64,000 bases of DNA from Lingula anatina (Eukaryota > Animalia > Brachiopoda): assembly GCA_051362555.1 (NCBI GenBank), contig CM120641.1:38384401-38448400 (forward strand), given 5' to 3'. The notes under the pieces were generated by a model. That model was given only the letters and a program-made list of their open reading frames with translations, had not been told where the DNA came from and did not search any database. This document shows, piece by piece, positions 1-62,791 of this stretch. Within the stretch, counting starts at the first letter, position 1. Each line of letters starts with the position of its first letter. Both the position numbers and the translations under genes were made by a program.

Positions 1-820
1 GAGTCATAAGTATGTGAACTGTCTTAAGGCTAGATAGAAAACTGAGCTTAATCTCTGCCTGTTGATTCAGAAGGTGACCTTGTTCCCAGGTTCAAAGAAT
101 CCCATTATTATTACAATTTGGTGAGGACAATAGGAAAGAATGTCTCTCTGACCCTTAGGTTACATGAAACAGAACTGTGCGGGGTTTTTAATCTTTTTCA
201 TATTTTGTCCAATATTTAGGATTCAAGCATGGAAGTCAAGAAGATGAAAAATTTGCAAAACAAGTGAATAAGATTTGATAGAGAAAGTGGATTCCTAATG
301 ATAATTGGTGAGTGGTATTTTCATATGTTGATTATGATATTTTTTTAATGACCTTTGTAATGTATTATTTAAAATTAACAGAAAAATTGTAGCCCTTAGT
401 GGAAGGGATGGCAATGCATTTTTTATGCTTTGGATTTTAATATTTACTTTTTGTTAAATATGTTTATTACAGCTGTTGTGAAAAATGAAATAAATAAAAG
501 ATAAATTTGTTGTGCATCCAGTGAGATTTACAAAAGTAATATCAATTTGTTAGAAGTATTTAATAATTAAAGAAATATGAGTACAAACATATATTTAATA
601 ACAGGCGTTCCAAACAAAACTTTAAAAAACATATACTTTAGAAATACGAGACATCATAAAAATTGAATTAATACCTAATGAATGTTTTAATGGAAAGAAA
701 ATAGTAATTGGAAAATTTCAGAAAAGGGAAGTGTGGTACCAAAAATATATATATATGTCCATTCTAAGTAATGGTATCCCCTCATATTGAAAACCAGTAA
801 AATTCTCATGATAGCTTTGA

Positions 821-21433: not shown

Positions 21434-21930
21434 AACTGGTCCTAACAGTAGCCTTCAATGCAGTACTGGCCCTCCCTGCAGTATTGGCCTTCACAGCAAT
21501 ATTGGTCCCATGACCCTAATTACAATATTGGCACTTACTGCAGTATTGGTCTATCGCATTAGTAGATTTACCCTTACTTCACTATTGGCCCTAATAGTAG
21601 TATTGGCCCTTCCTGTAATATTGGCCCTAATGGGAGTATAGCACTCACTGCAGTATTAGCCCCAATGGCACAGCATTGGCCCTGTCTTTAGAATTGGCCT
21701 TCGCAGCAGTATTGGCCCCAATGGTACAGTACTATTGGGCCTCAATGCAGTATTGGCCTTCATTGCAATGTTGGTCCCCTTGGTAGTATTGGCCCTAATT
21801 GCAATGTAAGCACTAACTGCATTATTGGTCTTTCGCATTAGTAGATTCGACCTTACTATAGTATTGGCCCTCATAGTAGTATTGGCCCTGATGGAAGTAT
21901 TGGCCCTCACAGTAGTATTATCCCTCACTG
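21434..21930. repeat. Degenerate 18-bp minisatellite (consensus ~agtattggccctcactgc), roughly 27 units
   Basis: tattggccct cores recur at 18-bp spacing, e.g. gtattggccctcatagta / gtattggccctgatggaa / gtattggccctcacagta. This explains the repetitive ORFs 21321-21641 and 21656-21946. Confidence 0.9.
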
Positions 21931-23214
21931 AAATGTTTTTACTCAAATGTTTTATTAAAAGTTTGTGTTGACAGTGCTATCCCAAGCTGAGAGTGAAGAT
22001 TCCAGTTTACCTATAGTCATAAAGTCACCTAGAAAGAGAGTATGCAAGGTACTTAACTGACCAGTCAAACACATCGGCATGAATATATGGACTGTAGAAA
22101 TGTCTGCTTAATCTTTGGCCAAAATGGGGACAAGCAATTGGCAACCCTGTTTGCATATATTTTACAAGTACACCTCACAAGGACTGATATAAAACCTTTC
22201 ATAAATTCAAAACCCATAGATATTTAGGATATTTAAGAGTTGTGTCCATTAACGCAAAAAGTTCATATTGTTTAATTATATGAAGCCATTATAAAGTATA
22301 TTATGAGCCCAACAGCAGGATTTTTTTACAAATGGGAATGCTTTGTAATCTCACTACTTTTATTTTGAGTTCAAACCGATGTTTTAGTTTGCCAACTCTT
22401 TCTTACAATATTTTCATCTCGTGAATCTGTTGGATAGAAGGACAAAAATAGACCATTTTGTATATGTTTTTCATGAAACCAAAATGCAACCAAAGATGCA
22501 ATCACGCAATCTATGTTCCAGTCTCCCTCAGTCCTTGTCTCTATCTTTGTTTCCTTTCCCACTCACTCTTTGAGTGAGTATTGAGAATGGTTACATCTTA
22601 ACGCAGAATTCCATTGGTCAGATTATTGTGTACAACCATTCTGGTTTCTTCATGCCTCAGTAAGAGTATGTGCTATTTTATATCTGCAAGCAATATTACA
22701 TTGCTGACATGGTTTCCATATTCCTTGAACAATACACCAAAGGAATGTAGCCTGTGCTCATTCATACATTCAGTGCTGAAGGACACAAGTTGAGCTGGCC
22801 GTAAATTATTCAGCAAGGAAGAAGGGAAATTCAGGTGATAATGGTAAGCAGATGCTACGGTGTGACTTTTTTCAAATTGTTTCAACTTTTAAATGAAGGT
22901 ATTAGGTTGGATAAACATGGGATGATTTGGTTGGTATCTTTTAGAAATAGGTTGATGGAAATTGTACCAAATAAATGGTAGGGTGTTCATATAGACAAGA
23001 TACAAATTAATGTCATATACACATGCATGTGTTACATAGTACCTTTAGCAGTAATATTTTTCCATTTGATTTTTTTGTTGAATATTTCATAAATCATCAT
23101 ACTGATTTTGATCAGGGGTGATTTTAAGATCAGCATTTCCTGTGTTATCATGGTGACCAAGATGTCCCATGTGACAAAGTACCATACCTGAAGTATCTAT
23201 CAAATTTCTCCAAG

Positions 23215-39893: not shown

Positions 39894-41860
39894 TTTTTTT
39901 ATGTACAGACACAGATGTGTCTGTACATATTGCCATCACCTGCGTCTGTCGTCGCCGATCATGTCGCCGTCGCCGTCGCCGTCGCCGTGCACTTTCAGCG
40001 TTAACACCATAAGTGGAAGACAGTTTTACTTTTTGGTTTTATATTTACAGAGCTGACTAATATTCATAAAACGCAGGTCAAGTTCGAAAATCAGCATGAT
40101 CGGCCCATTATTGTAGAATTTATGCTGTTTTTTCACTTTTTAGCATATATGCAACACTGTTAACACATTTCAAGGAAAACCAATAGGCCTGTTGTCATGA
40201 AACTCACAGGAGTATTCAGTCTTACTAAAACGCAGATCAAGTTCGAAAATCGGCATGATCGGGCCACTATTTTAGTAGTTATGCTGTTTTTTCACTTTTC
40301 AGCATATATGCAACACTGTTAACACATTTCAAGGAAAACCGATAGACCTGTTGTCATGAAACTCACAGGAGTAATCCATCTTACTAAAACGCAGGTCAAG
40401 TTCGAAAATGGGCATGATCGGGCCACCATTTTACTAGTTATGCTGTTTTTTACACTTTTCAGCATATATGCAACACTGTAAACACAATATAAGAAAAACA
40501 GATGGGCCAATTGTCATGAAAGTCACAGGAGTGGTCAATTTTACTAAAATGCAGGTTGAGTTCGTAAATCAGCATAATCGTGCCATTATTTTAGAAGTTA
40601 TGCTGTTTTTTCACATTTCCTCAGATTCAATTTTTAGGCATGTTAACAGTCTCATTATTAAACTAATAAGATACGTGAAAGTGTTTGTTTGACATTTCCT
40701 GCATCTTTACAACATTGTTAGTTGATTTTGTAAAAATGATGGTAAACATGTTATCGTGTATTGTGTTATAAAGTGTCAAAAATGGAAATAAACTCATATC
40801 ATTGCAGTTTGTCAGATTGAATCATTCACTATGTTCAGAATCTCAGAATGGAAGAAATTGGACATTTAACACTGCTTTATTGATATTTTTCCCATCTCAT
40901 CAATTTTCTTAGTTGATCATATAAAAATGGCAGTAAACTGTTAATTTTGTTTTATGTTAAAATTTGTTAAAAATGGAAAAAAAATTTCAGAACAGTGCTG
41001 TCTTGTTTACATTTTGGCATTTTCAAGTTGTGACTTTGAAGTTCCATGGGCCTGAAGACCTTTGCTAGTCACATTTTCTGAATATCCATGATACTAATAT
41101 TTTATTATTAAAAACTGATGGTCATTATGCTGTTAAAAATTATGTAATATTGCATCAAAATTTGAAAAAAACCTAATTTGGGCACTGCTCCCATGATGAC
41201 CATTTAAGAAAAACCATGTCAATTACTGTTCTCAAACAGTACAGTAAATATATATAAATGTGTCTGTACATATTGCCATCACCTGCATCTGTCGTCGCAG
41301 TCATCGCCGGCGCCGGCGCCTTGCACTTTCATTGTAAACATGATAAGTGGAAGGCAGTTTTACTTTTGGGCTTTATATTTATAGAGCTGATGAATATTCA
41401 TAAAACACAGGTCAAGTTCGAAAATCAGGATGATCGGGCCATTATTGTAGAAGTTATGCTTTTTTTTTTCACTTTTCAACATATATGCAACACTGTAAAC
41501 ACATTTCAATGAAAACCAATAGGCCTGTTGTCGTGAAACTCTCAGGAGTAATCGATCTTACTAAAACGCAGGTCAAGTTCAAAAATCGGCATGCAGCCCG
41601 AGTTGGAAAAGTCTAATTGGCTTCTTTTTCTGGAAGTTATACATTTTCAAAGTGTGAACTTGAACTCTCATGGGCCTGAAGCCTTATGCTTGTTACACAT
41701 TTTACTTACATTGGTATTACCTGTTGAGCATAATTAAAATTTGATGTTGAATTTGCAGTTTAACATAATGTACTTTTGCATCAGAATTGACAGTAGCCTA
41801 TTTTGTGCTTAGTTATTTCCTGCTTTTTGTCTGTACATTTGACAGCTTTGCTGCCTTGTT
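39894..41860 (+). mobile_element. Non-autonomous Helentron-associated (HINE/DINE-1-like) element, tandem dimer with internal ~159-bp tandem repeats
   Basis: Starts in a T-run with a 14-bp inverted repeat hairpin tatgtacagacaca-ga-tgtgtctgtacata (39900-39929). Followed by a (cgccgt)n microsatellite and ~159-bp repeats (anchors at 40071, 40230, 40389, 40549). Second unit starts at 41259. Ends with 3' subTIR tgtctgtacat (41828-41838), short palindrome gacagc-ttt-gctgcc and ttgtt. CpGs are retained. Confidence 0.8.
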
Positions 41861-44800
41861 CAAATTTAAAGGAAATTTTTCATTTTGTAGAAAAGGTGAT
41901 GAAAATGAATAGCCGGAGTTGAGGGAGTATTATACACGTTGGTACTGATTTTTCATTAACATTTCTTTCCATTTGGAATAACATTGGATTTCCATTCAAT
42001 GTTCAAGTCAGCAGTCCAGGGTTTTAAATGTACATTACCATGTGGGGACATAAGCCATTTCCATAGATAAAAAAATACAGTATAAAATCTACCAATTAGC
42101 TTATCATCATGGTATCAGTTATTTTTTTGGGTAATTTATTGCAAAGCTCACCCGACATGTACACAATATGGCAGAGACTCCACCCCTCTGACGCCTCCGC
42201 CTGACAGGCTCAAAGCAGCAAGATTTTTTATCGAGTGTGTTGTGGATGTGTCGGAAGTGGTGGTAGTCTGGCAGGTCAAGCACTGCATCTCACCTTATTA
42301 AAAACCAGTGGCTACCTCACTCTAGTCAAAGAGAAAGGAAACTGGGCTTTTCCGTTCCCACTGCAACTTCTGTTTATTTATCATGAACTCCCATGAGCCC
42401 GCCTCCTTCTGCATGAAACTGTTGTAAATTTGTTCTCTGATTATTTTCCCAAACAAATTTGGTGTAAAACTCTATGATTTTCAGAGACTACACTATGAAA
42501 AATGTATACTTACTAGTATTAATAGCGATTAAATCTGTAGGAGACTTGTTTATTTTGCATTGCTTGAGAAGCCTATGAACAAAACATGAAGGCTACAGGT
42601 GTAGTAGAATTAATGTTCATTTATGTAAGTTTGTCAGAGTCTATTTGTTGCTGCTGTGTACATATCAGTTTTCTGTGGGTAAAATGGGTGGTACGTTTTC
42701 AATGCAACATACACCTCATCTGCCATTCAAGGATATGTGTATGGTATGTAAGGTAATGACTATATTTTGAATGGGTAAATAATCTTTTTTTATTCTGATA
42801 CATAATTTTTCATTAAAATATATTTCTGTGTAGCACAGTGTAGCACTTTGTGTAGAAAAAAGAATTATAAGGTATCCTGTTTTTCAGTTTTCTTGCTACC
42901 ACTCAATAGGAATGTTCTCATTTTTAAAATAAATGGCTTTAAAAAATACAGTATCTAAAAAATTTACATTTTCCCCATTTAAAAGATTTAGTCAGTACTG
43001 AATTTTGTGAAGAATTTCCATGCTGCTTGCTCTGTAAATATAATATTGTGTTTTAATGTCAGTCTCATTGCTCAGTTCTGCAAAAGACAAGTGAAGTTAT
43101 ATGTAGCAGATATGATATTTAAGGTTGCATTATTATAAATGACAGTTAAAACAAGATCAAAAGAGTACCTAAGAACACTATATATATGTATATGTTTCTT
43201 CTGAACAAATTCTGTGTCAGCTTGGGTGGTCATTTAATAATAATACACCATCTTCCCCTTGAAGTCATCCTATTGTAACACTGTGAAAGGGTGATGCAAG
43301 GTGGTCCAATAGTAGAGGGCTTCATTTACTGTTGTAAGGAGGACCCTTAATTCAGGCAAGTCTGTTGTGGGGTGATTATTTTCCATCTTGATGCACTGTC
43401 ACTTCTGCTCTGCATTCAATTAAATAAGAGACCTGCACAGGTTTGAGTCATTTATATATTTCATGTGTGGATTTATTTTTTGATAGCTTAAATTCTATGG
43501 GAAATTTAGAAGCCTATATCCTTGTGCTTTTCTTTTCTCTCCAAATTGCAGGAAAGATGATGCTAAGTACCATTAAGATTATAAACCTTTTTTTCTGTGC
43601 TGACTCAGCATGTGCGAAAAGGGAAGCTTATACAGCTACAGGCATGATTCCTACAAGGTATGTGCTCAAATGACAGGACAAATGTTGTGGAAGATAGTGT
43701 TTGTTTATCATAACCATGCGTCATAAAAATGTCAAATTGACAAGAAAATTTGACAGGTTGGGTGACGGCTTCATTTGAACGTCAATCTAAAAGTGAATTT
43801 GAGAAACTAGGAACTTTTAATCAATTTTTTTATCCTTGATCAGGAGAGAAAAGTTTTTTGTGTACATTTATCCAGGAATGGGCAGACGGCTTTTATAACA
43901 AATGCTGCTTCTTTATTGTAACTGCAATTGCTGAAAGAAAAGCCTTGCCTGAAACGATGAAAAGTAAATATTCCATTAATGCTGTAATATTAAGATTGTG
44001 AAGCATGTTTTATCTGTTAGTATTTACATTCTTTTCAATATATAGCCATTCACAATGATTGTCGCAATGTCTAGATTTAACCCAGCAGTCAATGGAGTAT
44101 CTCCAGTAGCAGTCAACACATTGTGAACCAAGAAAATGGGCTTCATGCATGCCTCAGCAGAGACGGAGAAAGGAAAGAAAATGGAATTTCAAAGTCAAAT
44201 GATAGATAAACAGCTAGAAATCTGATGGTGAAAAGTGATTAGCTCAAATCCAAATCATCCTTTCTTCCCATAGGACGTGTTTTGATTATTCTTTATTTAT
44301 ATGGATCCAGTTCATTTTATGATTTTATTGATTTAAATACATCCAAGTTGGACTGAGATCATTTCAGTCTGCTTCAGCCCCCTCTTCTGCCTGACATCTT
44401 TGCAATGTTTTAGATATTCTTTTTAAAGAAATTTTCCAATATCTAAAATCATTAGCTCCATTATGCAGAATAACCATAGCATTAACAAAAAAATCAATGT
44501 TTATCCAAAATTGAAATTTGATCTTTTTTATAAGAAAAGAAATAATTGTTACTTTATTTTGATACCAGTTGCTGATAGTGAAAGTTGTACAGGACAGAAA
44601 TAAAAAAGGTTTTTACTATGAATTTGCCTACAGGAATTAAAGAGGATAATTTTTGACAAGGAATCTTGTACCCTCAACCAGGACTAGGTGGTCACTGATT
44701 TATTTGATTGCAAGGATTTTAGAATCCACATGAAAAATATAACCTTTTTGTAAGAGACAAAGCGTTTTAGCATCAAACTAACCATGTTTAAGTTCACTGA

Positions 44801-47800: not shown

Positions 47801-50570
47801 TAGTTGACACACAAAGTGCAAACCAAAAGTCTACCAGTCTTTTTTTATGTTTTTTTATGCAACGCTTTTACACAGATTTTGTAATTGCACACTCAGTGGT
47901 TTCATCTTCACCTTTATTCATCTGGAAAGCTTTCTGCTTGATTCAATTTTGGTTCCATTTTGTGATTGTGATTTTATTTTTTATTCCAAAATATGTATAT
48001 TTCTTAATCCATCAGTCCTTATAACTGTATGCATGGCAAATCAGAAACTTGATAATTAAAAAAATTCTTGTTAAAAAATGTGAAGACTGAAACTATCAAA
48101 TCCATAAAATTGAAATTGTCAATGCCATTGTTTATGCATAAAAACAAAATTGATTCCCTAACAGAGATCTTTGTTTGTTTTAAAAGTTTTTTCTATGTTG
48201 TACACGAACATTTTTACAGGTGGACACAAATGTGTTGTTTTAAAACTCAGAATTTGTCAACCCCTTCAATATACACCGTCCATGCTGAGAAATTTTCAGA
48301 TGGGAACCGCATCTTTGTCATTCACTAGACAGATGAAAATATAAAACCACTTAAAAACTTGTTAACAAGTGTTGAGTTTCGATTGTGTTTATTTTGAAAA
48401 AACACTGACTGTACGGTCTGTATGGTCTGTATTGCCAGGGCAATTTTGATGGAAAGGTCTCAGCTGGTCAGAACCATAGGGTCCCAGCAATCAAGACAGC
48501 CCAGGCCAGCAGTCTGAGACTCTCACTTATAATTGACTTGCTCGCAACAAGAGTTAGGAGTATAAAATTTAATTGAACTTGAAATATTATAAAATTATAA
48601 AAGGCTGCAAACAAAGGGCCTCTTCCCTGACCTTGGTGTGTAGCCTGCAGCCCACCAAGGAAGGGCAGATACTTGCCAAAGGAAAGGAAGGGTTTCTTCA
48701 TGTTTTTCGCCCGATTTGTTTTATTACAAACATAATGGTCACTAACTCTGCCATTAGGAATACTTCTGAGGAAATGCGAAGCATTATGTTGGTTTAGTGA
48801 TTGAATCATCAAATGGCCCTCATGTGCCTCTCTGCTTTTTGCCTTCTGATTTTGATTTTGTAGAATTGAAACCACACTTTGCACAAAGGGAACTCACTTG
48901 CGTGGGTTAATTGAGACTGTTATTAATATCTGTATTAATTAGGACCTTGAAGGCAATTAGAAGCAACATGGTCAATTTTTTCTCCCCGAAATCATTTTTC
49001 ATGTTCAAAACATGATTCATGTTATTTTGATTGGTATGAAAGAGGTTTCTGTTAATTTTTTCTTTTTGGTTGAAAATTTATTCTTTCAGTTGCCTTTCTT
49101 TTTTTTATTAGAAAATTATCTTCTTTTTTTCCCTCAAATGCTAAATCAACCGTCTTTCTGACTAATTTTATATTTAAAAAACAAGTATTCTTTTTAATGA
49201 TATTATACTTTCTTCTTTGGTTGATAGATAAAATTAAACAATTGCTCATTTTATATATTTATTCATATAAAGAGAAACAGAAACAACTTTGTTTGCACCA
49301 TGCTAGAGAAATGATGCCAAAGTTCATACAGCAAACATGCAGAAATGATCTGCTTCCACTGCAGTTGCTCAAGTAGTTATCAACTTCATTCCGCTGGACG
49401 TCTTTGGTTGTCGAAATTATTTCATAGATATAGGGCCTTTCAGTGTCAATAAACCGGTACGCTTACCTTGGCTCTTGTCTGTTAAGGTGTCCATGAAATG
49501 CTCAAAGCAAGCGACCAGATAAATCTTTATTTACATTTGCACCCAAAATGATACCTTCAAGTGATCTGTTGATTATTGAAGAGTGCGGCTTCAGGTATCA
49601 CATAAACATGAGATAGCCTTTTATTGATTGTAGCTTTTATGTTATCTCTGTATTATCATAAACAAGTGTTTATGATGGAGATAGCCCGCTGTGTCATTAA
49701 GGTAATTTTTTATAGGATTATTATCTAGAACTGTCAATAAAGTAGAAAATGACCTTGTAGGAAAAATTATCATTTCTTAGCATGAATTTCTATCAGCTAT
49801 TTGTGACATTTTTGGGATAGATCAAGTACAGGTCTTGTTTAAATACAGCTTTAAGTAAAGTAAATAGATTTTATTTTCAGTTGAAACAGGAAGAAAATCA
49901 ACAAGTTTCACATGATGAAATTTACAGATTTTCCCATCAGAATCTTTCCAATTTTTTTCCTGTATAGATTTACACAGGTTCCTCTAATCAAGCTTTTAGT
50001 TCATATCATTGAACCACATATTGTTGCTCCATCCTGTGTCCAGTGATTGGATTACCAGAAAAAAAAGCTACACTTGCAGTGTACTCTGGTAACAACAACC
50101 TGTGAAGTATATGTACACTCACACACAAGTAGTAACCACCAAGCGCTGTCGTCCTGCGAACAATTAAACCCATCTAATAATAACTTCCTCAGCTACTTTT
50201 TATGTTGTTACATCTATTTTCATAGGTGCTACATATACCGAGATGTCCGAGGGGTGGGAAGCGAGGGTGGAAGTGAGCTGTTTATGTTACCCTGGGTGCG
50301 TCCATGACTGGAGAGGCCCTCGAGCCTGAGAGTTTGGCTCAGTCTGACTGGGAACACGTGTTGTGGTCACCTTTCTGTTCTGCTACTGCTTCCAGGCTTT
50401 TAAAGTGGTATTTGTCTTTGGAATAAATCATTAATTAGTTGTTTGGATAATGGATGATGTTACAGTGTTGATCTTGCCTAAGAATATGTTGACCTGTGCT
50501 CAAATTAGTAACCTTTTGTTTTTCCAGCAAACACCGTCGGCTGCAGTTGGTGCGGTCACCTTAAATGAAA

Positions 50571-50633
50571 CTGGTTTTCACAATGATTTGCCAGATATTT
50601 TTAGAAATTCTGAGATCATTGTGAAAACTGATT
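50571..50633 (+). ncRNA. bantam: bantam pre-miRNA; mature 3p 50611-50633 UGAGAUCAUUGUGAAAACUGAUU; 5p/star arm ~50571-50595 CUGGUUUUCACAAUGAUUUGCCAGA
   Basis: The 3p arm matches the bantam family (seed GAGAUC; Drosophila UGAGAUCAUUUUGAAAGCUGAUU differs at 2 positions). ggttttcacaatgat pairs with atcattgtgaaaact and caga with tctg around a ~13-nt loop. Arm ends give a 2-nt 3' overhang. CNNC motif (CATC 50649-50652) starts 16 nt past the 3' end. Confidence 0.96.
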
Positions 50634-53407
50634 TTGTTCCCTATGTAACATCTTTGACCACGATGACCACAGCCCAGGAGGAACCGTTTGACCACTGTTG
50701 GAGCCATCACCACAACATCTTAACTGGTGCATCTGTGCCAGTTTAAATAAAAACATACTGAGATGATCAGAAAAAAGTCAAGCAACAGTTACTTGGTGCA
50801 TGATTGTTTTTGGATTATAGAGAAATAAAGACAAAATCAAAAGAATCTAGGTGGAACTTGAGTTTTTCACCCACCTGACTGAGAGCATGTTTAGGAAAAA
50901 GATTCCTTACTAAATGGATCCCAGTAGGCAGCATCAGATATGCAGTTTTTATGTTTGTTTTATTTGAAGGCAGGGAAGATATGAAAAACAAACACTTTGT
51001 CACATTGAATGAGATTGGAGCAGAGAATTTAACCTGGCCTCGTAGGCCTTCAATTAAATAAGCAGTCAATTAGTTAATTAACCTGATGTGATCCAGTGCA
51101 AGTTAATGATGAGAATGAGTGCAAATAACTGGGGTTCCAGAAAGAGCACCCAGCTAATCACACAGATCTTTAGTCTATGACAGGCCACATATTTATCAAT
51201 ATTTGAGTTTGTTTTGTGCCATACTTGATAATGCAGGCCCAGCAGATCAATGGCCAAGACAAGACCCACTTTGCTGAGGAATGGCATTAAATAAGATGGG
51301 TATGACCACATTTATATTGTATATATGTATATATATATATATGTATAGTTTATATTCTAGTAAAACTGTATCTGTCTGTGTAAATAATTTGTTTTGGGTT
51401 TTTGTACCAATTATTATCCAATTATTTAATGTTTAATATCCAAGAAAGAGACAATCAAAATATTTTTGAAATTCGAAAATGGTTATGAGTATTCGAAGGG
51501 GTCCCAAAGTCTTGATGTTCTTTTTTGGTGCACAGATATTTGGAATTAACCACATAAGCAAAAATGTGTTGTTCTACCATCAGATAGACATGGATATGAA
51601 ACTGTCTTTCAGTGGTAGTAACCATACAAATACATTAGGCAACCGACTTGAGGTCTATGAACAGAGAATTGAGGACAGGACATCTATACCAGAAAGGGGA
51701 AACCACCACCATGCATTTTCAATGTAAGGAATCATATTTGGTCATAAACAAGAGAAAATGTTGGTGGATTCAGTGTCAAATTTGACTGTCATAATTATTT
51801 TTGTTGTTCTTCCAAACTTTCATAGATTTAATTTTGTATTTTTACAAGAAAAACATATGACAATTGGTCCTGCAATGACCAAATGTTTCCCTACCCATTA
51901 AAGGAATTAAAGGAAGGAGCATATGTTGCAAATTATATCTGTGTTCCATCTTTTATACCAGTGGTTTAAGAGTTTAATTTCTTGCTCCATATGTTGTATA
52001 ATTTTGTCAGTTTTGGGGTTTGAGTCTGCAGTCAAAGAAGAAAAATAAAAAGGTGACTTTAAGAGTTAATTCTGGACCTTGAAGTTGACTTTAACCTTGA
52101 AAGCAATTAGAGTTTTAGGACAGACTGGGATTTTGGCTAGTTTTCTGGTGTTAAATAATTGATTATGAAAGTTTTAATAATTTAAATATAAAACTGACCT
52201 CAAATCCTTCTCATTTGTTAACGTTATTTATAACTGATAACTTCCCGAATCTGTCATCTCCCAGTTTAAAGTATATATTCGTCTCTTTGAACCCTACTTT
52301 TTATCCAAAATTCCTAGACCTTATTAGACCTAAAGGCATTCGAAAAGTTCAGAAATGTAACTTCATTTATTTTTTAAGCAAGATTAGCTTACATTTGTTT
52401 TGTAACACTGTTGTCAAATAAAAGAAACTGCAAATATTGTTACTACTGTTTAAACTTCCTGCAGGAATGTCTTAGTTCGTTCAAATTATTATAAAGACAA
52501 CACGAACAAATCAAAATGTCCGGGAGGATGAACCATTTATAGTACCAACACATATCTGAGATTGCATTTTCACCGTTTCTCCACTGTAGGGGTTGGATTT
52601 TTACATTATGATTTTACACATGGTGCGTTCATCTTTCATCTGCAGAGTTAATAAAAAAAACATTCACTGTGAAAAAATCAGAATATTTGATCCAAGGTTA
52701 CGTTGTAACTTGGCCGTATCTGAAGTCGCCCCTCTTTAAAATAAAGTAAAAGAAAGTAAACAAAACGTATCAGATTATGTTCTTAAAACGAAACGGAAGC
52801 ACAAATACGAATCTAAAAACGGCAATTGGCTGTTAAATATGAATGAAAACCCAATAATTTTTTATTTCTGCGTTCAGTATCAGATGGCGACGGGAGTGTT
52901 TTTTAGCTCGTCAACGATACCTATCAGTAGGCCAAAACCGGGGATCATAAGATAGCGTTCTGCCACGTTAGATCGTACCTCCTTCTTAACTTGCCACTTG
53001 AAGACAAATTTAGGGGCTTATTTGCTTTCCATATTGACTGATAGTCAGCTAATATTTGTTCAAAAGAAGGATAGGACGTCTGACCCAGCGAAGTCCGAGG
53101 TATTCGCTCTGGCAATTTACCAAATTTAATCGTCCAGTTGATAGTATTAGTGTAGCTATCTCGCAAAGGATCTTCCTGTCAGGGGGGTGCATCGAGAAAT
53201 TAAGGGGTTTTTTTACGAAGGTAGATGGACACAAAACATGGAAGTACGCCGATTTAGATCTATTTTGATTGTTAATGGTTTTACACTCATACATTCGGCG
53301 AGAAAAATTGTTAGGCCTATTGTGATAGAATGTACTAAAATAAAAACACAACTTTTTTGTTCTTTCTTTTTTTAATGAAAGGCTAAACTTAACAAAATGT
53401 CTAACTG

Positions 53408-53507: not shown

Positions 53508-55049
53508 TTTCAAGGCACTTCATTAATAGTCCAAGTAGTTCGTATAAATGCTATTCTGTTTTATGTTTTAATAAGTTTTTCATGCTAATGACCTATAACG
53601 AAACTGAACTTTTTCGAAAATAAATTGATGAATTTATAAAGTCTAGCAAAATTTATGCCATAGATTTCGAAATTAGGCGTTCTCAAAGAAAAACCACATT
53701 TATTGAAAAGTCCTGGATAATTAGCCCTGTCAGACGCAATGTTGGCACGCATCCCTGTATATTTAAACTGTAGTATACTTGTGGCTACACGGCTAATTCA
53801 GCACTTTGATTTATCACACAGTCGAAATATAACAAGTCGTCTTTCAGGGTTTGATTTACTCCATAACTTCAACTAAAACAGTTTCGGCCGCTGAGAGATA
53901 AGTAGGAAGTAGGCGGTGGAATCTAACTTTGATTACCAAATAGCAAATGAAGAAATTAAAAGGAAAGGAAATTATAACTGACCTAATCAACAGGATGGGG
54001 CTATGCAACTGTGCTCTATACGACATATCAAAGCAGGACGCCTAAGATTGCTAATAAATTCAAATGCTGTATATTCCCATTCCTGGCAAATGATTAAATC
54101 CAGGGGCCGTGATAATCGGTAAAATCCCCTCTCCTCCTAGTTACCCCCTCTCCCGGGCCCCGTTATTATCAATGAAGCTCTCGACCTGATTGATCAGGTG
54201 GTTCAAAAACTCTGAGAACATCCAGGTAAGTGCCACATTCTTCGGCGGCTACTCAGCTGAGCTGTGATTTCCTGTGGCTGGCTACCGAGTTACATTAACA
54301 ACACGATGTCGGGTTATAAATTTCAGGGGTGAAAAGCTTCTTCCGATCGCAGGTCTAAGGTGACGTTATTTTATGGCATGTCATCCCATCGAAGTACGTA
54401 CATTACGACGCAAAAAGGGTCTAAAGTTTCTTCCAGTAATGCAAGGAGTTGTAATTTGATTATATGCGTGTATTGTTCTTTTGCCGGATTGTCTTTTCTT
54501 ATTTAAAACTGTTGACACAAAAAAACTTTTTTTCGCCATTTGCTCACAGTGTAACATACGCCAACTCAATGTATATGATATCAACATTGAAATTTTCTAA
54601 ACTTGCTCTGAGGACGATGAGAACGAAAACTGACGATTTTAATGAATCTGTAAACCGTTTAATCAACTTTATCTCACAATTTTTAATGTAATAATGAAGT
54701 ACGTAAATGTCACTTAACCTTCTCATCGTCTCTTGCCTTTTTTTTCGAAAACGTTTTTATAGAAAGGGCATCGTTTTTTCCTCGATTCTTCGGTTCTTTT
54801 TTCTCAAAGGCAAAATTTGCGTGTTTGTCTATATTTGAAATGTATACAAAACAAGCGGCAAGCTGCAAGTCACTGGATGGCAGCAATCAAAGCTAAGGCC
54901 AACACTTCTATTTTATTGAGAACTGATCATTGTGAAGTTCAAGAACATTCATTTGTTTAAATGGCCGTGAGCATTAAGAACATTCCAAGACACAACATTA
55001 TCATAATTAAATTTTGTTTAACATGAATTTCATAAAGAGTCTGGAAATA

Positions 55050-57224
55050 TGATCTTTTTCCTTTAAAACGCCTTTATTTTCCATTGCTACACTTTTATTG
55101 AAAATTTAATTTGGGGGATAATTTTCATATTCTGCTCCTTCTCCGGAAACTCGAGGTGATGGAGCCAACTTAAACAAGTTTATGTTATATTGAGTGGTTA
55201 CATTCAACAGCAAAATGTGAGCACCGAATGAAAAAAAAATTGAAAAGTTGGAGGCCGTTTGGAAGACCACCGGTTTACGCAAACAGATATTCCGCAGACG
55301 AGGGCAAGTGTCTAACCGGAAAATATTTACGCTAAATATAAACCAACATAAAGGGAAACTTGTGCTGTAGCTTTTTCTCAAAGTTTTTAATTTCAAAGAA
55401 TAATATATTTTACAAAACATGGTGACACGTGTGAAATAAGGGAGCAAGCTTGTTGAACGTTTCTTAGTGTCTTGGGAACGCTGCATAGTTTGTTTAAATG
55501 CATACCTGGCGTTTAAAATAAAAACAATCATTTAACTAAAGGGGTTTTTAAAATTGACAAAAAAAGTATTCTTAAAAAGAACAAATAATCAAATCTCCAA
55601 CAGATGCTTCAAATTCTTGAAATCGTTTTCACATATTTACAAATGTGCGTAAAACGCATTTGGAAATAATCGTTCTAAATAACGACAAAAATTCACACAT
55701 TCTAATAATGATCAGCTACACATTGTATAGACAAGCTGAACATCATCGATGATAAAAAAAACGTAACTACAATAAATTAATAGAATATCAAAAGGTCTTT
55801 CATTCATATTACACTGTAATATAAATATAACTATATACAAAACATAAAAACCTGATTAAAAAAAGAAAAACACATGATCCGTCTCAAAATATAAAAACAA
55901 GGATCTCGTTTTGCTTTTTATCATACAGATTAAAACAGTTATAACATATCTACACAAACATGTTCAATGATTCCATTCTAGTAGTATTTCGTCACCCTAA
56001 ATTTGTCCTTATATCAAGGAAAAAAAAAAGAAAATCAATATTACACATTTTAAAAGCTTCATCCCAAATCTTTTGAAAATTAAGTACCTCAGAGACACAA
56101 GATAATGAACTTTAAAAAACGACCTAAGAGTCGCGTCCTGTGACATTTTGTTCTAGAACAGCATTCAGGGCTTTGAGAAAGTCGAGGTAAGGGGAACGGG
56201 TTTCGCCCCGCGCCCCTTGCACCTGCGCCCAATTGGCCCCTGCACATGTCACAGGAAGTTTACGGTCGAAAATGACAACATTTCGACTTCCCCAGCTGCT
56301 GAGCGTGACACGGCGCGACCCACGAAATGCTGCTTTACACAGCTTGTATCTTACTCTCCCGCTATCGGTTTCCACTTGTCTAAATATACAAATCGTGTTC
56401 ACCGTAAAATATCGCTCATTAACGACAACTCTTTTCATGTCTGTTTACCTGATATGCTCAACTAAACCCCAAGTTTATCCCTGGCGATTCCGCTTACACC
56501 TGAACCGTGCGCAACAAGTACTTCAAACTGTTTCGACTTTCACTGCTCCCGAGAGGAACCAAATTGCCAAGAGCAAATGGCACAACTTCTCAAACTATCC
56601 AAAAAGCAATTAGTCGATCTTTTCCCATAAGCTCAATAAATACTTCATCAATCCTAGTCCAACTTCAAAGAAGTTAGTAACACAATATTTTTGCCTATAT
56701 TTACAAAACCTGTTATAAGTAACGGATTGGGAACGGCATAATTTACCTGCTGCAATTTACATGCCGATGTCGTTTCTCGCTCCTTGTGGTGCGTTTTCTA
56801 TGTGCTAAGTAAAAACTTTAACAGCTAATTCAAGTCCCTTCCAGCTGATTGTTTTAATACTTTCTCCTCAAGAGAGGACAGCCGAGACAACAGAAGACTG
56901 CAGAACGCGCTTCGGACGCATCTGCAATGCCAAAATGTGCCGAGAATGTCACGCGTATATTCTATTGTCTCGCGACAGTTGTCCATCACTGTCAAAGCCA
57001 ACCACTCCCGTACCTCACAGCGTAAGGGATCGTACCATTTTGAAATACCCAAAAATTCTATTAATCTGCATACGCGACAGCATTTAACATAGCTTAGAAC
57101 TCATCATCTGTCAACAGGGGAACACGACACGTGCAAAAAGAGGTGCACCCCAAATAAAGAAGCAAAACCCGGGTGCTGAGATCAGATGGATAAAACGCTT
57201 GTGTTACAGGCACTTGCGTTCCCC
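55050..57224 (-). other. Putative SoxE 3'UTR (~2.1 kb)
   Basis: U-rich on the minus strand downstream of the stop. Minus-strand AATAAA hexamers at 55094-55099 and 55073-55078 (another at 54912-54917). The 3' end is inferred, not proven. Confidence 0.55.
57177..57184 (-). promoter_or_regulatory. 8-mer bantam seed-match site (UGAUCUCA) in SoxE 3'UTR
   Basis: Plus strand reads TGAGATCA at 57177-57184, i.e. UGAUCUCA in the minus-strand mRNA. Complementary to bantam nt 2-8 with A opposite nt 1; 40 nt downstream of the stop codon. The match is exact; function is inferred. Confidence 0.6.
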
Positions 57225-57910
57225 TCAGGGTCTAGGAAAGCGGTCCCAATGTGCCTCTCCACCTAAAAGAGTCATGGAAGGCGGGTATGGCGGTCTCTGG
57301 GAGCTGTGGGACATGTAGTGGTAGAGAGGAGGCGCCGGATGGTTTCCCGCTGCGGCATAAAAACCCGGGGGTGATCCACCAGGTGAGTACGTGTTGCCTT
57401 GGCTACTTGGGTTGTTCTGTAGCTCGAACCTGTGCTGATGCTGGGCTTGGGACATTGGAGGGAGGCCATAAGGGTACTTGTCTGTTGAATAATGGCTGGG
57501 CGGGGAGTTCTCTGCTTTGACTTGCGTTCCAGGAGAGACATTGTCATTTGTGTCTGCAGCATAGTTTCTGGGTATTGCGCTGTTGCCGGCATTTGGAATG
57601 TTTCCGTTGTTATGGAGATCTGTATCCACGGAGATAGGTTGATAATTGACGGACGTGGACACGCGATACGTGCTCATCCAATTTGGTGACGTCGTAGATG
57701 GGGCACCGCCGTACGCAGATGACGGATTGTTGTGTGCTGGGACATTGTTCACCACTGGATGTTGGCTGCCATGGTGACGGTGTTGCGCATGCCCATTAGG
57801 AGGTAAATACTGATCAAGCTCTGCCTCGTCAAAGTGATCGATGTTTCCGATGACATCGTCTCTAAACTCACCAAGATCCACGCGACTGAAGTCTATAGGT
57901 TGACTTTGAC
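57225..57910 (-). CDS. SoxE: SoxE coding exon 3: K2/TAM region and C-terminal transactivation region
   Basis: Acceptor tttttttcag|GT. Reads (G)[40 protein letters not shown], homologous to SOX9 [36 protein letters not shown]. Contains a VKAE SUMO consensus and ends HWDRFPRP-stop. Total CDS 380+362+686=1428 nt, i.e. 475 aa plus stop. Confidence 0.95.
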
Positions 57911-58310
57911 CTGAAAAAAAGCGTTTATGTCGGGTTTAGATTATGCTTGGTATAATTTACTAGGACACACCCCACTCGAGCCACAGGTTATGTCTTGAGT
58001 GCACACTTCACAGTCAAACTTGATTTTCACAAATCAACTCGAAGCTCTGGCCTGCATTTGTTTTCAGTTGTCATTTCAAATAATACTTATTAGTTTTAAC
58101 GCCAAATACAACGTGGCCGAGAACGCCTTAGTGAAGTTAAGAACGTGAAAAACTGTTAACGAGAAAGACAGATTATTAAACGCATGGACCTTTTTCGCAC
58201 ATAAGGACTTTTTTGCGTATTTCAAATTATATGTCACATACGCAATACTAAATACAAAGATGGATTTTTAGACCTTTTATCTAAATAAAACTTCTCAAAA
58301 TCCGTCTTAC

Positions 58311-58672
58311 CAGCTAAATGCCTCAAGTGAGCCAGTTTGTTTTGCGTTCCTGTTTGCTCGTGCTGGTTGGGTGTGGCGGGTGGGGTAGGGGGTCCACGCA
58401 CGGCACAGCCGTTTAACATGCACGATTCCCCTTCACTGATGGATGAACTTGGTGACGATGTGTCTCGTAGAGTTTTAAATATGACAGCGTTGGACAAGCT
58501 GGACGAACTGTCGTTGCTATTGTTGTTGTTGGATTCCCCCGATCCAGATGCTCCTTTCATTGGTTTTCTTCTACGAGGTTGGTACTTGTACTCGGGGAAA
58601 TCTTTCTTGTGTTTCTGTCTCAGTCTCTCTGCTTCTTCGACGAACGGTTTCTTCTCACCTTCGCTAAGCATT
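58311..58672 (-). CDS. SoxE: SoxE coding exon 2: C-terminal HMG box, NLS and PPTPPATP motif
   Basis: Acceptor ttttgtag|A completes the Arg codon. Then [36 protein letters not shown]...GPPTPPATP...HLA. Donor G|GTAAGA (intron begins 58310), phase 1. 362 nt, frame-compatible with exons 1 and 3. Confidence 0.96.
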
Positions 58673-61600
58673 CTACAAAAAGAGGGACAGGTACTTCGTT
58701 ATACAAATGTAAAATTCTTATGTGGAGATTTTTTACAAACGTACGTAATATTCAAATCCCGCAAAACCGATCTGAAGATTGTTGGGAAATTAAGAGCACT
58801 CTTTAACAAGATAACATAAATCGTTCAGAAAAGCGTGAAACTGTCTTCTGCATGTAATTACAAAGAAAAATGGTTAATTTACAATGCTGTTTAAACATCA
58901 GTATCTGTTTATTTAATGAACCATGCTATCTTAGCATAAAATATAATCAATCACGTTAGAAGAGAAATCGACAGTGATGTATATCTCATCACTTCTTTAG
59001 AATTAAAATTCATTTGTCATGCAACTTCTGCCTAATGTTACCATTACACGACAAGAACAGACGCGTCGAAGCGTTGGTGGTTTTCAATTTATTATGACAG
59101 TGTTGTGTGCTGAATAGTTTGTTTTTTTTTTTTTCGTTGCTTATAGGACAAGGCGCAACAACATTTTTCACAGTAGATCAAAGCTTTTCAGCATCAAGCT
59201 GTACATGGAACTATTTGCAAAAATGAAGATGCGTCTCGTCATGGCATAATCATAATTTCAACTGAATCTCAACATTTGCCGTTGCCATCGGGTGCATGCT
59301 TTAAGACTAACAATAATAAACAGTTACCGCATATCTTTACACTTGTCAGTTGCCCTCTAATAAGCCTGTTTAATAATAATGACATAGCGTTTGGATCTGG
59401 GACGTTTGCTTTGTAACAAGTAGCAGGGTTAGCGTGTCAAGTCTAATAGGTGAAGTATAATGTCCCAGTCGTCTTCAGACCGGAATATGACCCCGTTAAC
59501 TTCAATAAAAAAGTATAGTCGGATAGGATAGGAGTAAGAGTCAATGTTTTTTACATAACACAGTACTAACAGTAGGGAGTGGACGGAATCCTGCGACAGA
59601 TATTCCACCAAAACAAGATTAAAATCTTAAACATCTGATAGGTTGGTCTGTCCGAGATCAACTGCACTGTCTCACCATTACCGTGAACCCAATGACCTTC
59701 GAAGATTCGCGCGTCAAGTTTCAATTATTACTCAATTGCTGTCCATGCTCTGATAAAAAAATTAACCATTTGACACAATCCATGGCTTAAGTTGATGTTC
59801 CAGTGAAATGAAGACACCAGCCCTCGACAAGCCGCCTAATTCGTTGGGAATGAATCTTATCCACCGGTCAACCCTATCAGTTGCAATGGCTTTGACGGTC
59901 GCGTTATCAGGCGACTTCTTGCACCATTGCCTTTCAATATGACCGTACTAAATGACTCTAAAGGTCCTTTGAACGAGAACATGAGCCCCCGGCACTTACA
60001 TTATATATGACTGTAATCAAAATCAACCTAAAGCCCAGAAGGAATAGAATTTCACGGTTTTCCGTAGTACGTGGTTCTCCACCCTATCGCGTTTTCGAAG
60101 ATGCGGGCTTCGATTTAATTTGGATCATTTAAAAACGTAACATTCGTAAATCACTAGCAGACAGACTAAATGTGTGTCAGGCAGCGGCATGTTGAGCAGA
60201 CGATCAGAAGATGTGGTTTTCCGAAGGTGGCTGCCGTCCCGGACACTGTGGTCTCCGTTCTCACTCCCACTATTTTCTTGTTTACATGTGTCTGTTTTTC
60301 TACACGTGTATGTCGGTCTCGTACCGGTTCCAGGGGTAGGTAGTATCCTCTCGTTCAACTTCTAAATTTCCTCCCCCTTTTCAATAATTCTGTTCTTATG
60401 ATAAATAAACGGGTGTCAACGTGTTTTCTTACTTTTAAAGTGTCTTTATCTCTTCGGAGAAAAAAAGCTTAATCATTAACACCAATCGTCTTAAAATTCA
60501 TGATTATTATAAAGTAATTGCTCGGCGCCTCCTTTTTTACGCTGCGCTCTGCATCTTCTCAAATACATTTCCTTTAATGTAACAGGCGAGTAATAATTCC
60601 TGAGAACCCCCGCGCTTCCTGAGGATTGATCTGGGGAGTATGATGGATCATTTTAGCCAGATGTGGTCCACAAAATGGAGCTGAGAGGGGAAATGGTTGT
60701 CCATTTACTCACAACTATCTGGAACTGCTTATGGCAAACGGGACCATAACGCCAAAGCGTGGTTAAGTTTCAGCTCTTTTAAGTTTGCGATAATGTTGGA
60801 AGAAATAAAAATTAGAGGAGGAACTGGCGTCTTGAATATGAATGAAAATCTGGTTACTTATCACTGAGATCTTTTATGGAATATTGTGGTTTGTAAAACA
60901 AGTGAGCGGAATCACAAAATGTTGGCAAAAAGCGACGTGGATCTTTTTTTGTTTACAATTGTTTACACATGTGAGTTCATAAAAAGGATTGAAGTAAAAG
61001 GTTGAATAGCAAGTGATATTTTATTACACAGTAGCAATACAACATTCACTGATTTAACTCGTAATTGTAATTTATAAAATTGAATATGAAATACTTTGTT
61101 AATTGGAATTACCATTTGGCAAGGTGTAATATTACTCTCTACTGTGTTTGATCCTAATTTTTCATTCTTTTTTGTATTCATTTTTACTCTTATTTTTTTA
61201 ACTCATTATAGGATGGTATGCTTGAACAATTTATGTTTCAGAAGACATTAGAAACAATTCGTGTTTTCAGGTCCGTCTTTCGGTGTTTTCATACATGTGT
61301 GAGGGGAGTGCAACCTATTATACTGCCCAGATGTTTTTGTAATTTGTGCTTTCACAAGTGGTCCAGTTATTAGAAAGTGAAATGTGGGTGTCCAAACTGT
61401 AACAATACCATAAAAACCGATGTTATTACTGCCGGAGGATAGTGCCCAGGTCGTTCCAAGATATTATTAGTCATTTAATCCAAAGGGTTGCCGGAGAAGC
61501 CCACGTCTTTTCACCCCAACACTGAAAATGAGATGCAGTCTCCAAGATCTTAACTCCCGCATCCGTTGTATACAGCAATTTCCTAAGTTAAATTTACAGA

Positions 61601-62266
61601 GTGGCTTACTCATATTGTGTTGCAAATATTCAAACTGAAGTGTCTGATTCGCTATTGACTGAACTTGTTATACAGCGTGCCCATTTACATTTGCAGATCC
61701 TATGCTACTTTGATGATCCTCTACTCGTTTTTTTCCCTTCCTATTTTTTAAATCGGTATCTTATAAAAGGCACACAAAATATAATAAAAAGTGTTATGTG
61801 TTTTAGCACGAACTTGAGCAATTCTGTCAAACCTGTATTCGTGTGTATATACGCATGTATGTACATTTGTGTAACGTAGGAGATGGCGGCACTACGATTT
61901 AAGTTAACAAAATGATGCATGTCGACGTAAGACGCGCTCAGCTTTGTGGCTGCCTAATTAACAAGGCGGCGACCTGCGGAAAAGACGACAACAAATATCA
62001 ATCTTTTTTCCTCTTTGAAAGCAGGAAGTCCAAGACGCACGTTTCACCAACTACTTGTACACTCACACCTGTACACAACTAGTTTGGAGGAGTTAATAAG
62101 AGAAGGCGTGCTTTTAAGATTAATTGCAAGCTCTGTTGGATGAGGTAGTTCACACGAAGAAAACTTCAAACGAAGTATGCGTTGTTATTTCACGTACTTT
62201 TCTCACTTAAGAGGGACGGGGTGATATTTTGAAGACCAGCACCTTGATAAAATACCCCCCCCTCCC

Positions 62267-62267
<1 letters not shown>

Positions 62268-62313
<46 letters not shown>
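62268..62313. repeat. (AC)23 microsatellite in SoxE intron 1 near the donor
   Basis: Direct reading; reads (GT)n on the transcript strand ~100 nt into intron 1. Confidence 0.95.
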
Positions 62314-62315
<2 letters not shown>

Positions 62316-62411
62316 CATGCAGGTAGCACGTGACATGACGACTTCTGGCCACAGCCTGCCATAAGAATGATTGCATTAAAATCAATAACGTATCATATCC
62401 TAACAACTTAC

Positions 62412-62791
62412 CTCCATAACTTGCCTAGAGTTTTGCTCAACTCTGCGTTGTGAAGATGTGGGTACTGATCGGCCAGCCGTCTTCTTGCTGCCTGGGCCCA
62501 CACCATGAAGGCGTTCATAGGTCTCTTAATGTGCGGCTTGCGTTTGTCTGATCCCGGCCCACGGGTTGGCATGGGCACCAGAGACCAGTCGTAGCCCTTT
62601 AGAACAGACGCTACTGCTTGCTGTATGTCTGTTGATAACTCATCACTGCTATTGCTTGTAGTACTCTGCTTTGGATCATCACTGGATTTAGTCGGCATTT
62701 TGGCAGTGGCAGGAAAGTTTTCCGAATCTGACTCCCTTTCGCTCTCTCTGCCCGAGTCTGATGTGGGGGAAGACATGCTTGCGTGCTCCAT
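62412..62791 (-). CDS. SoxE: SoxE (Sox8/9/10) transcription factor, coding exon 1: N-terminus, SoxE dimerisation domain, N-terminal part of HMG box
   Basis: Translation contains [21 protein letters not shown] (SoxE DIM domain) and [43 protein letters not shown] (SoxE HMG). ATG at 62791; the track start at 62794 is GTG. Ends at donor AG|GTAAGT (intron begins 62411), phase 2, the conserved SoxE intron position in the HMG box. Confidence 0.97.

What the first reader, a model, noticed from the sequence alone, without database searches (positions are those of the whole stretch)
50571..50633. bantam microRNA hidden under a spurious ORF
Seen: a complete hairpin with the 23-nt mature arm UGAGAUCAUUGUGAAAACUGAUU, a complementary star arm, 2-nt overhang geometry and a CNNC motif. 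The ORF track shows only a meaningless 98-aa ORF here (50450-50746). Known: bantam is a protostome growth-promoting, anti-apoptotic miRNA and a Hippo/Yorkie output in Drosophila. Its presence places the organism in Protostomia.
Basis: partly seen in the sequence, partly recalled or inferred. Interest (0 to 1): 0.75.

Follow-up and report, generated by a model that had tools for sequence, protein, structure and literature searches.

The report
Brachiopod bantam microRNA beside SoxE gene
This is the well-known growth-control microRNA gene bantam, here in a lamp-shell (Lingula) genome and likely already catalogued; the one new lead is that it sits next to the SoxE developmental gene both here and in a distant animal lineage, which is likely an old, conserved neighbourhood.

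Summary
Confirmed and essentially known. Rfam places bantam (RF00727) at 50557-50640 (+), 74.7 bits against a cut-off of 61; the 23-nt 3' arm is at 50611-50633, occurs once in the window, and the hairpin folds at z = -4.8 with a 2-nt overhang geometry. The overlapping 98-aa ORF has no homologue. The neighbouring gene is SoxE, 474 of 475 residues identical to Lingula anatina SOX-9, so the window is from this brachiopod; MirGeneDB lists one Lan-Bantam and dates the family to Protostomia. Long-RNA reads show weak + strand transcription across the locus; no small-RNA data could be examined, so the exact ends are inferred. CNNC is present but weak evidence; UG and UGU motifs are absent. Beyond the finding: among 18 animal bantam loci from metagenomes, 2 (of 5 with at least 2.7 kb downstream) carry SoxE 2.1-2.6 kb downstream, in the opposite orientation to Lingula. 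My literature searches found no report of this linkage. The Lingula SoxE 3'UTR also has a perfect bantam seed site (chance 2-6%), absent from the two other SoxE genes.

The parts
50557..50640 (+). bantam precursor hairpin with lower stem (Rfam RF00727 match)
   Evidence: 74.7 bits, GA 61, E 8e-14, model 1-82/82; fold z -4.80
50571..50593 (+). 5' (star) arm; ends inferred, the 3' end may lie at 50593-50595
   Evidence: pairs with the 3' arm; no small-RNA reads examined
50594..50610 (+). terminal loop region, about 16-17 nt, no UGU/GUG motif
50611..50633 (+). mature bantam-3p, 23 nt (ends inferred from homology); seed = 50612-50618
   Evidence: single copy in window; matches Rfam consensus 3' arm; first 17 nt shared with 18 animal loci by construction of the search
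50649..50652 (+). CNNC motif at +16 from the 3' arm end
   Evidence: 8.8% background, weak
50512..50527 (+). 3' splice-acceptor-like site (pyrimidine tract + AG) 43 nt before the star arm; would put the hairpin in an exon of a spliced primary transcript
   Evidence: sequence; 26 such sites on the + strand of the window; no spliced read seen; inference only
50746..50751 (+). first AATAAA downstream of the hairpin; use untested, reads continue past it
49801..52224 (+). region with sparse long-RNA read cover on the + strand (likely primary transcript; ends unknown)
   Evidence: 26 reads of runs X6-X8, all first mate '-'; strand calibrated on SoxE reads in X3 and X6
50450..50746 (+). 98-aa ORF overlapping the hairpin, likely spurious
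   Evidence: no homologue; no Pfam family at cut-off; 1-nt deletion at 50563 in one contig of a related organism (run X1)
62412..62791 (-). SoxE (Sox8/9/10) coding exon 1: Sox_N and first half of HMG box
58311..58672 (-). SoxE coding exon 2
   Evidence: GT-AG boundaries
57225..57910 (-). SoxE coding exon 3 with stop codon; gene is convergent with bantam, stop 6.6 kb from the hairpin
   Evidence: three exons give 475 aa, 474 identical to P0001; distance
57177..57184 (-). perfect bantam 8mer seed-match site in the SoxE 3'UTR, 40 nt after the stop
   Evidence: chance 0.02-0.065 depending on UTR length and model; function untested

Best explanation
The stretch is the bantam microRNA gene of the brachiopod Lingula: a hairpin inside a long non-coding + strand transcript that is likely cut by Drosha and Dicer to release the 23-nt 3' arm, which would guide Argonaute to repress mRNAs bearing the seed match. 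Shown here: family identity, hairpin, conservation of pairing across animals, sparse + strand transcription, the host organism's identity, and a SoxE gene 6.6 kb downstream on the opposite strand. Inferred from the canonical animal microRNA pathway: Microprocessor cuts at about 50570/50571 and 50633/50634, Dicer cuts near 50593-50595 and 50610/50611, 3' arm loaded. Inferred from Drosophila only: a role in growth and survival. The SoxE neighbourhood is likely inherited from a common ancestor with the lineage of L008/L011 (about 0.65); whether it has a function is untested.
For: Rfam bantam 74.7 bits vs GA 61, the only gathering-level hit in 64 kb. Fold z -4.80. In an alignment of the window with 11 other precursors, 95.6% of 252 cells pair, 3 of 21 pairs show changes on both sides, covariation score 0.211 with 0 of 500 shuffles as high and at most 0.080 for slid controls. 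All 18 animal matches fold with the mature sequence as 3' arm, against 0 of 3 chance matches inside bacterial ORFs. Host: SoxE 474/475 identical to L. anatina SOX-9. MirGeneDB 2.1 tracker has one Lan-Bantam row; lan = Lingula anatina; family node Protostomia. Transcription: 26 of 26 reads (13 pairs) from X6-X8 are first mate '-', whereas reads on the minus-strand SoxE gene are first mate '+' in X3 and X6. No read of the 4 runs crosses 50608/50609 in the loop, as expected if the hairpin is cut out, but depth is too low to weigh this.
Against: No small-RNA library was available, so neither end nor arm choice is observed; table 6 shows no stacked ends. Basal UG and apical UGU/GUG motifs absent; MFE lower stem only 7 bp with pair probabilities 0.56-0.81. 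The 4 reads (2 pairs) of run X9 lie in the opposite mate orientation, strand not calibrated. The covariation test is biased: the 3' arm was fixed by the search pattern, 7 of 12 rows are one related group, and the two pair-count measures were not above shuffles (142/500 and 134/500). Only 1 of the 18 other loci (L017) reaches Rfam's gathering score. The MirGeneDB entry was seen as a name only; its coordinates were not compared with this locus.
Confidence: 0.97

Rival explanations
1. The 98-aa ORF 50450-50746 is a real protein-coding gene and the hairpin is incidental or secondary.
For: ORF starts with ATG and is followed by AATAAA at 50746; the region is transcribed on the + strand.
Against: No homologue among 5.8 billion clusters in the 53-172 aa range; only a sub-threshold Pfam match, 13.8 bits vs cut-off 21; 123 stop-to-stop frames of 70 aa or more occur in this mostly non-coding window; a 1-nt deletion at 50563 in a relative's contig (one contig, depth 6.7); similarity to other animals is confined to the hairpin.
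Confidence: 0.02
2. The locus is a silent or decaying bantam copy (pseudogene or assembly duplicate), the working gene being elsewhere.
For: No small-RNA evidence examined; no whole genome was held to count copies; processing motifs are few.
Against: Both arms intact and high Rfam score; + strand transcription; the stretch is one of three places in 19 kb where run X1 of a related organism aligns at 90% or more; MirGeneDB lists one Lan-Bantam row; the SoxE linkage is shared with other animals.
Confidence: 0.02
3. The functional product comes from the antisense strand (a mir-81-like hairpin), alone or in addition.
For: Sub-threshold Rfam mir-81 match on the - strand, 37.2 bits vs GA 54.5; antisense folds at -24.5 kcal/mol; 2 read pairs of X9 downstream have the opposite orientation; SoxE is transcribed towards the hairpin.
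Against: A near-palindromic stem matches a same-clan model on the other strand as a by-product; all 13 pairs from X6-X8 indicate + strand RNA.
Confidence: 0.03
4. On the neighbourhood only: bantam and SoxE are adjacent here and in L008/L011 by independent chance or by passive leftover linkage with no regulatory meaning, and the seed site in the SoxE 3'UTR is chance.
For: Orientation differs (convergent here, head-to-tail in L008/L011). No SoxE in L005, L012, L017 with 2.9-5.2 kb downstream. No 7mer or 8mer site downstream of the SoxE stop in L008 or L011. Site chance 0.02-0.065, found post hoc, partly buried in the local fold, flank only 53% AU. No shared non-coding sequence in the 3' regions.
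Against: Pure chance is unlikely: 96 kb of flank in all was scanned; for an assumed genome of 100 Mb or more a one- or two-copy gene falls in it with probability of about 0.001-0.002 (my arithmetic). The three SoxE-negative loci end before the 6.6 kb distance seen in Lingula.
Confidence: 0.6

Closest known systems
bantam microRNA family (Rfam RF00727, clan CL00091; MirGeneDB BANTAM; entry Lan-Bantam)
   Same: Full-length covariance-model match above cut-off, mature on the 3' arm, same seed, host is a protostome; most likely the very locus listed as Lan-Bantam.
   Different: One position of the 3' arm (mature nt 17) is A where the Rfam consensus has G, outside the seed; coordinates of the MirGeneDB entry not seen.
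Drosophila bantam
   Same: Same family; Yorkie-driven, promotes proliferation (PMC11043500 passages; PMC3744074 abstract start).
   Different: Targets and upstream control untested in brachiopods. Drosophila bantam is on 3L; its SoxE gene Sox100B is on 3R (recalled, no call), so the linkage is apparently not kept in flies.
Nematode mir-81 family (Rfam RF00728, same clan; C. elegans Bantam paralogues in MirGeneDB)
   Same: Same clan; several Cel-Bantam paralogues are listed.
   Different: Only a sub-threshold antisense match here; a single copy in the window rather than several paralogues.
Conserved microsynteny / genomic regulatory blocks around developmental transcription factors (recalled concept, no call)
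   Same: A developmental transcription factor (SoxE) flanked by about 55 kb in which I recognised no other protein-coding gene, with a second regulator kept next to it in distant animals.
   Different: Only two independent lineages seen, orientation flipped, no conserved non-coding element detected.

Membership tests
bantam microRNA family | Precursor matches the family model above the curated threshold | tested here: met
   74.7 bits vs 61, model 1-82/82
bantam microRNA family | Family seed at nt 2-8 of a 3'-arm mature sequence | tested here: met
   3' arm aligns with the Rfam consensus, seed identical; position of nt 1 inferred
bantam microRNA family | Host within Protostomia | tested here: met
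   SoxE 474/475 identical to Lingula anatina; family node Protostomia
canonical animal microRNA | Single hairpin, two ~22-nt arms with 16 or more paired bases, loop of 8 nt or more (thresholds recalled) | tested here: met
   18 contiguous pairs 50572-50589 with 50630-50613; loop region 16-17 nt; precursor 63 nt
canonical animal microRNA | 2-nt 3' overhangs at both cuts | tested here: inconclusive
   Drosha side fits with start 50571 / end 50633; Dicer side depends on register (50593 or 50595); not observed in reads
canonical animal microRNA | Reads from both arms with homogeneous 5' ends | not testable with these tools
   only long-RNA runs and contigs were offered; no stacked ends
canonical animal microRNA | Optional processing motifs UG, UGU/GUG, CNNC (named in PMC6943042) | tested here: inconclusive
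   CNNC at +16 present (8.8% background); UG and UGU/GUG absent
canonical animal microRNA | Pairing conserved across species | tested here: met
   95.6% of cells paired, 3 of 21 pairs with two-sided changes; biased as stated
SoxE (neighbouring gene and genes in L008/L011) | Sox_N region with dimerisation motif followed by HMG box | tested here: met
   PF12444 + PF00505 above cut-off in window exon 1 and L008 exon 1; L011 by tblastn and tree only; no non-SoxE outgroup was in the tree
genomic regulatory block (bantam-SoxE) | Linkage kept across many lineages with shared regulatory elements | tested here: inconclusive
   linkage in 2 of 18 loci (2 of 5 with 2.7 kb or more downstream); no shared non-coding element found

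The most novel reading that the evidence does not exclude
bantam and SoxE form an ancient linked pair, kept side by side since at least the split of brachiopods from another (probably lophotrochozoan) lineage because they share a regulatory landscape; in Lingula, where SoxE has flipped to face bantam, bantam also represses the SoxE mRNA through the 8mer site just after its stop codon, making a local feedback module between a growth microRNA and a stem/neural/gonad transcription factor. Ancestral linkage alone: about 0.65; linkage maintained by shared regulation: about 0.25; direct targeting in Lingula: about 0.25.
Probability: 0.25. Interest if true: 0.55.

Novelty: already known. Interest (0 to 1): 0.27.

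Why it matters
The identification itself is routine: it confirms a correct call of a conserved microRNA under a spurious ORF and marks the window as protostome. The neighbourhood could matter more. bantam is studied almost only in flies and nematodes; if it has stayed beside SoxE across lophotrochozoan phyla, that points to an ancestral regulatory context lost in the model species and gives a directly testable link (shared enhancers, co-expression, direct repression) between a growth microRNA and SoxE.

Tried and rejected
No whole genome was held, so copy number and the place of the second Lingula SoxE could not be checked. Sequencing-run search: no RNA holder listed by the index; no small-RNA run offered. 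Other Rfam matches in the window at E up to 1 (mir-297, mir-1277, SCARNA7 twice, mir-223) are far below their gathering scores and several lie on simple repeats: rejected; no clustered second microRNA found. A tblastx match between the 3' regions of SoxE in the window and L008 (E 1.7e-9) fell to E 0.001 with stop codons when tested alone and had no DNA-level support: rejected as a sum-statistics artefact. Long frames downstream of bantam in L005 and one in L017 matched no Pfam family and no Sox protein. Three matches in prokaryote genomes lie in long bacterial ORFs and form no hairpin: chance; 0 matches in viral contigs. One search used a structure string that I had mis-registered; discarded and redone with the RNAalifold structure. 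The exon search returned nothing because I set a wrong donor; corrected. An upstream acceptor-like site is not at a matching place in 10 other loci (2 of 10 have one, further away). The SoxE tree could not place L008/L011. I recalled a report of bantam in an acoel; the paper was not held, searches found nothing, and MirGeneDB 3.0 dates the family to Protostomia. Earlier findings of this scan: none returned.

Full report
Observation. The stretch 50555-50650 folds into one hairpin at -26.3 kcal/mol, z -4.80, 0 of 200 shuffles as stable. Positions 50572-50589 pair with 50630-50613; C50571 faces A50631; a 7-bp lower stem follows. A star arm starting at 50571 therefore leaves a 2-nt 3' overhang on the 3' arm; the loop-side end of the star arm is 50593 or 50595 depending on register. 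CNNC is at +16 (50649-50652), but 8.8% of window positions have one at +16..18 and only 4 of 17 other bantam loci with a flank do. UG and UGU/GUG motifs are absent. Energy alone does not single the hairpin out: 90 of 10654 windows of 84 nt fold as well or better.

Identity. Rfam gives bantam RF00727 at 50557-50640, 74.7 bits against a gathering score of 61, full model length; it is the only gathering-level match in the window. The permissive scan adds a sub-threshold antisense match to mir-81 (same clan) and five weak matches, no second microRNA. The overlapping 98-aa ORF has no homologue among proteins of 53-172 aa and no Pfam family at cut-off.

Host. The only protein-coding gene I recognised in the window is a three-exon SoxE on the - strand (62791-62412, 58672-58311, 57910-57225; GT-AG introns; 475 aa), 474 of 475 residues identical to Lingula anatina SOX-9, P0001. 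I scanned 8 of the 123 long frames against Pfam; the rest were judged by eye, so small exons may have been missed. The window is thus from L. anatina or a very close relative. The MirGeneDB 2.1 version tracker has one row Lan-Bantam (PMC8728216, supplement rows; main text parts 1-2 of 4 read); 'lan' is Lingula anatina (PMC6943042, supplement rows); MirGeneDB 3.0 Supplementary Table 1 assigns BANTAM to Protostomia in a 114-taxon tree that includes Xenoturbella and two acoels (PMC11701709, one passage and supplement rows). The Xenoturbella sheet of 2.1 exists and has no Bantam row. Of 133 occurrences of the word in that supplement I saw 60, all on protostome sheets. I saw no coordinates, so identity of this locus with Lan-Bantam is inferred.

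Expression. No small-RNA run was offered. In 19 kb laid with four runs, reads on the minus-strand SoxE gene are first mate '+' in X3 and X6, which calibrates these libraries. Over 49700-52700, all 26 reads (13 pairs) of X6, X7 and X8 are first mate '-', that is + strand RNA, scattered from 49801 to 52224; the 4 reads of X9 have the other orientation and its strand is uncalibrated (6% of X6-X8 and 25% of X9 were read; X7 and X8 share study and library description with X6 but were not calibrated themselves). None of the 30 reads crosses the loop at 50608/50609, which fits excision of the hairpin but is weak at this depth. Contigs of a related organism (X1, X2) cover 50472-50650 and 50424-50641 at about 94% identity; for X1 this is one of three contigs laid in 19 kb.

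Relatives. One scan of metagenome contigs with the mature pattern gave 18 loci, 11 distinct precursors. All 18 fold with the match on the 3' arm; 3 matches in prokaryote genomes lie inside long ORFs and do not. Only L017 reaches Rfam's cut-off (1 of 18), so the others are called bantam from the mature sequence, a similar star arm and the fold. An alignment of the window with 11 of the 18 loci (near-duplicates left out) has 21 consensus pairs, 95.6% of 252 cells paired, 3 pairs with two-sided changes; covariation score 0.211, 0 of 500 shuffles as high, slid controls at most 0.080; the two pair-count measures were not above shuffles. The 3' arm was fixed by the search and 7 rows are one related group, so this is supportive, not independent proof.

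The SoxE neighbourhood (outside the finding). tblastn with SoxE proteins hits 2 of the 18 loci, L008 and L011, at 75-87% identity to P0001 over the dimerisation motif and first half of the HMG box; L008 exon 1 carries PF12444 and PF00505 above cut-off. The start codons lie 2624 and 2107 nt downstream of the mature arm on the same strand; in the window the SoxE stop is 6592 nt downstream on the opposite strand. One inversion of SoxE converts one layout into the other (inference). L008 and L011 are different species (about 74-82% DNA identity in coding exons, no alignable non-coding flank) but sisters in a tree of 40 of the 218 fetched proteins plus these two (support 100/99, long branch, position unresolved). 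Their HMG entry has Ile where 17 of 17 lophotrochozoan, 3 of 18 ecdysozoan and 0 of 5 chordate rows do, which suggests but does not prove lophotrochozoans; the best single hits were beetles at 64-74% identity. So the linkage is seen in two independent lineages. Five loci have 2.7 kb or more downstream; the three without SoxE (L005, L012, L017) end at 2.9-5.2 kb, short of the Lingula distance. With 96 kb of flank scanned and an assumed genome of 100 Mb or more, a chance hit is about 0.001-0.002 (my arithmetic).

A possible target. The Lingula SoxE 3'UTR has a perfect 8mer seed match at 57184-57177, 40 nt after the stop; 4 such 8mers lie outside the hairpin in 128 kb of both strands. Chance of at least one in a UTR of 1.05-2.15 kb is 0.02-0.065, and the test was post hoc. 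The site is partly paired in a local fold, its flank is 53% AU, and no 7mer or 8mer lies downstream of the SoxE stop in L008 or L011. I treat it as a lead.

Mechanism. Shown: hairpin, family, conserved pairing, + strand transcription. From established knowledge of the canonical pathway: Pol II transcript, Drosha/Pasha crop, Dicer cut, Argonaute loading of the 3' arm, seed-based repression. From Drosophila only: Yorkie-dependent expression and growth promotion (PMC11043500, passages; PMC3744074, start of abstract in a listing; the hid paper of Brennecke et al. 2003 seen only as a title in reference lists).

Novelty. The gene is known. For the linkage, full-text searches of the open library gave 0 papers for bantam+SoxE+microRNA, bantam+Sox100B and bantam+sox9+miRNA+synten; bantam+Lingula gave 2 irrelevant papers; bantam+sox9+miRNA gave 35, of which 25 were listed and none addresses it by title or abstract start; I opened one, PMC5607309 (passages), whose Sox9 row lists no microRNA. 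Passages of PMC3840308 and PMC12257675 did not bear on it. Subscription papers and MirGeneDB's own pages were not searchable, so 'not found' is not 'not in print'.

Verdict. A correct call of a known microRNA gene (confidence 0.97, novelty: already known). Interest 0.27, nearly all of it from the bantam-SoxE linkage, which a survey of animal genomes could settle quickly.

Noticed in passing
window 57225-62791 (-); L008 and L011: SoxE lies next to bantam in Lingula (convergent, 6.6 kb) and in two related unnamed animals (head-to-tail, 2.1-2.6 kb): apparent conserved microsynteny, not found in my literature searches.
   Followed up: yes
window 57177-57184 (-): Perfect bantam 8mer seed match in the SoxE 3'UTR 40 nt after the stop; chance 2-6%, not shared with L008/L011.
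   Followed up: partly
Periplaneta and Anabrus also show two SoxE proteins on contigs of equal length.
   Followed up: partly
window 1-55000: About 55 kb downstream of SoxE with no protein-coding gene that I recognised (gene-desert-like), holding bantam.
   Followed up: partly
window 50512-50527 (+): Splice-acceptor-like site 43 nt before the star arm; the hairpin may be exonic in a spliced primary transcript. No spliced read seen.
   Followed up: partly
window 39969-40619, 41304-41623: 159-bp tandem repeat (3.5 copies, 88% matches) with further copies about 1 kb away; satellite or transposon-derived.
   Followed up: no
window 21446-21943: Degenerate 18-bp minisatellite, about 15 copies in register.
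   Followed up: no
window 42881-42976: Short stretch hit by many partly matching RNA reads with loose ends in X3 and X6: probably a dispersed repeat present in other transcripts.
   Followed up: no
window 53889-54037, 55262-55383, 55808-55841, 56174-56718: Non-coding stretches between bantam and the SoxE stop that align at 90% or more with contigs of a related organism: SoxE 3'UTR and candidate conserved elements.
   Followed up: no
L011 SoxE (bantam-oriented positions 2436-2723): An extra intron between the dimerisation motif and the HMG box, absent from L008 and Lingula.
   Followed up: no
L001-L003, L005, L007, L010, L012-L015: A group of bantam precursors with a longer loop that itself forms a small stem and a G-to-A change near the 3' end of the mature arm, compensated on the star arm.
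   Followed up: no
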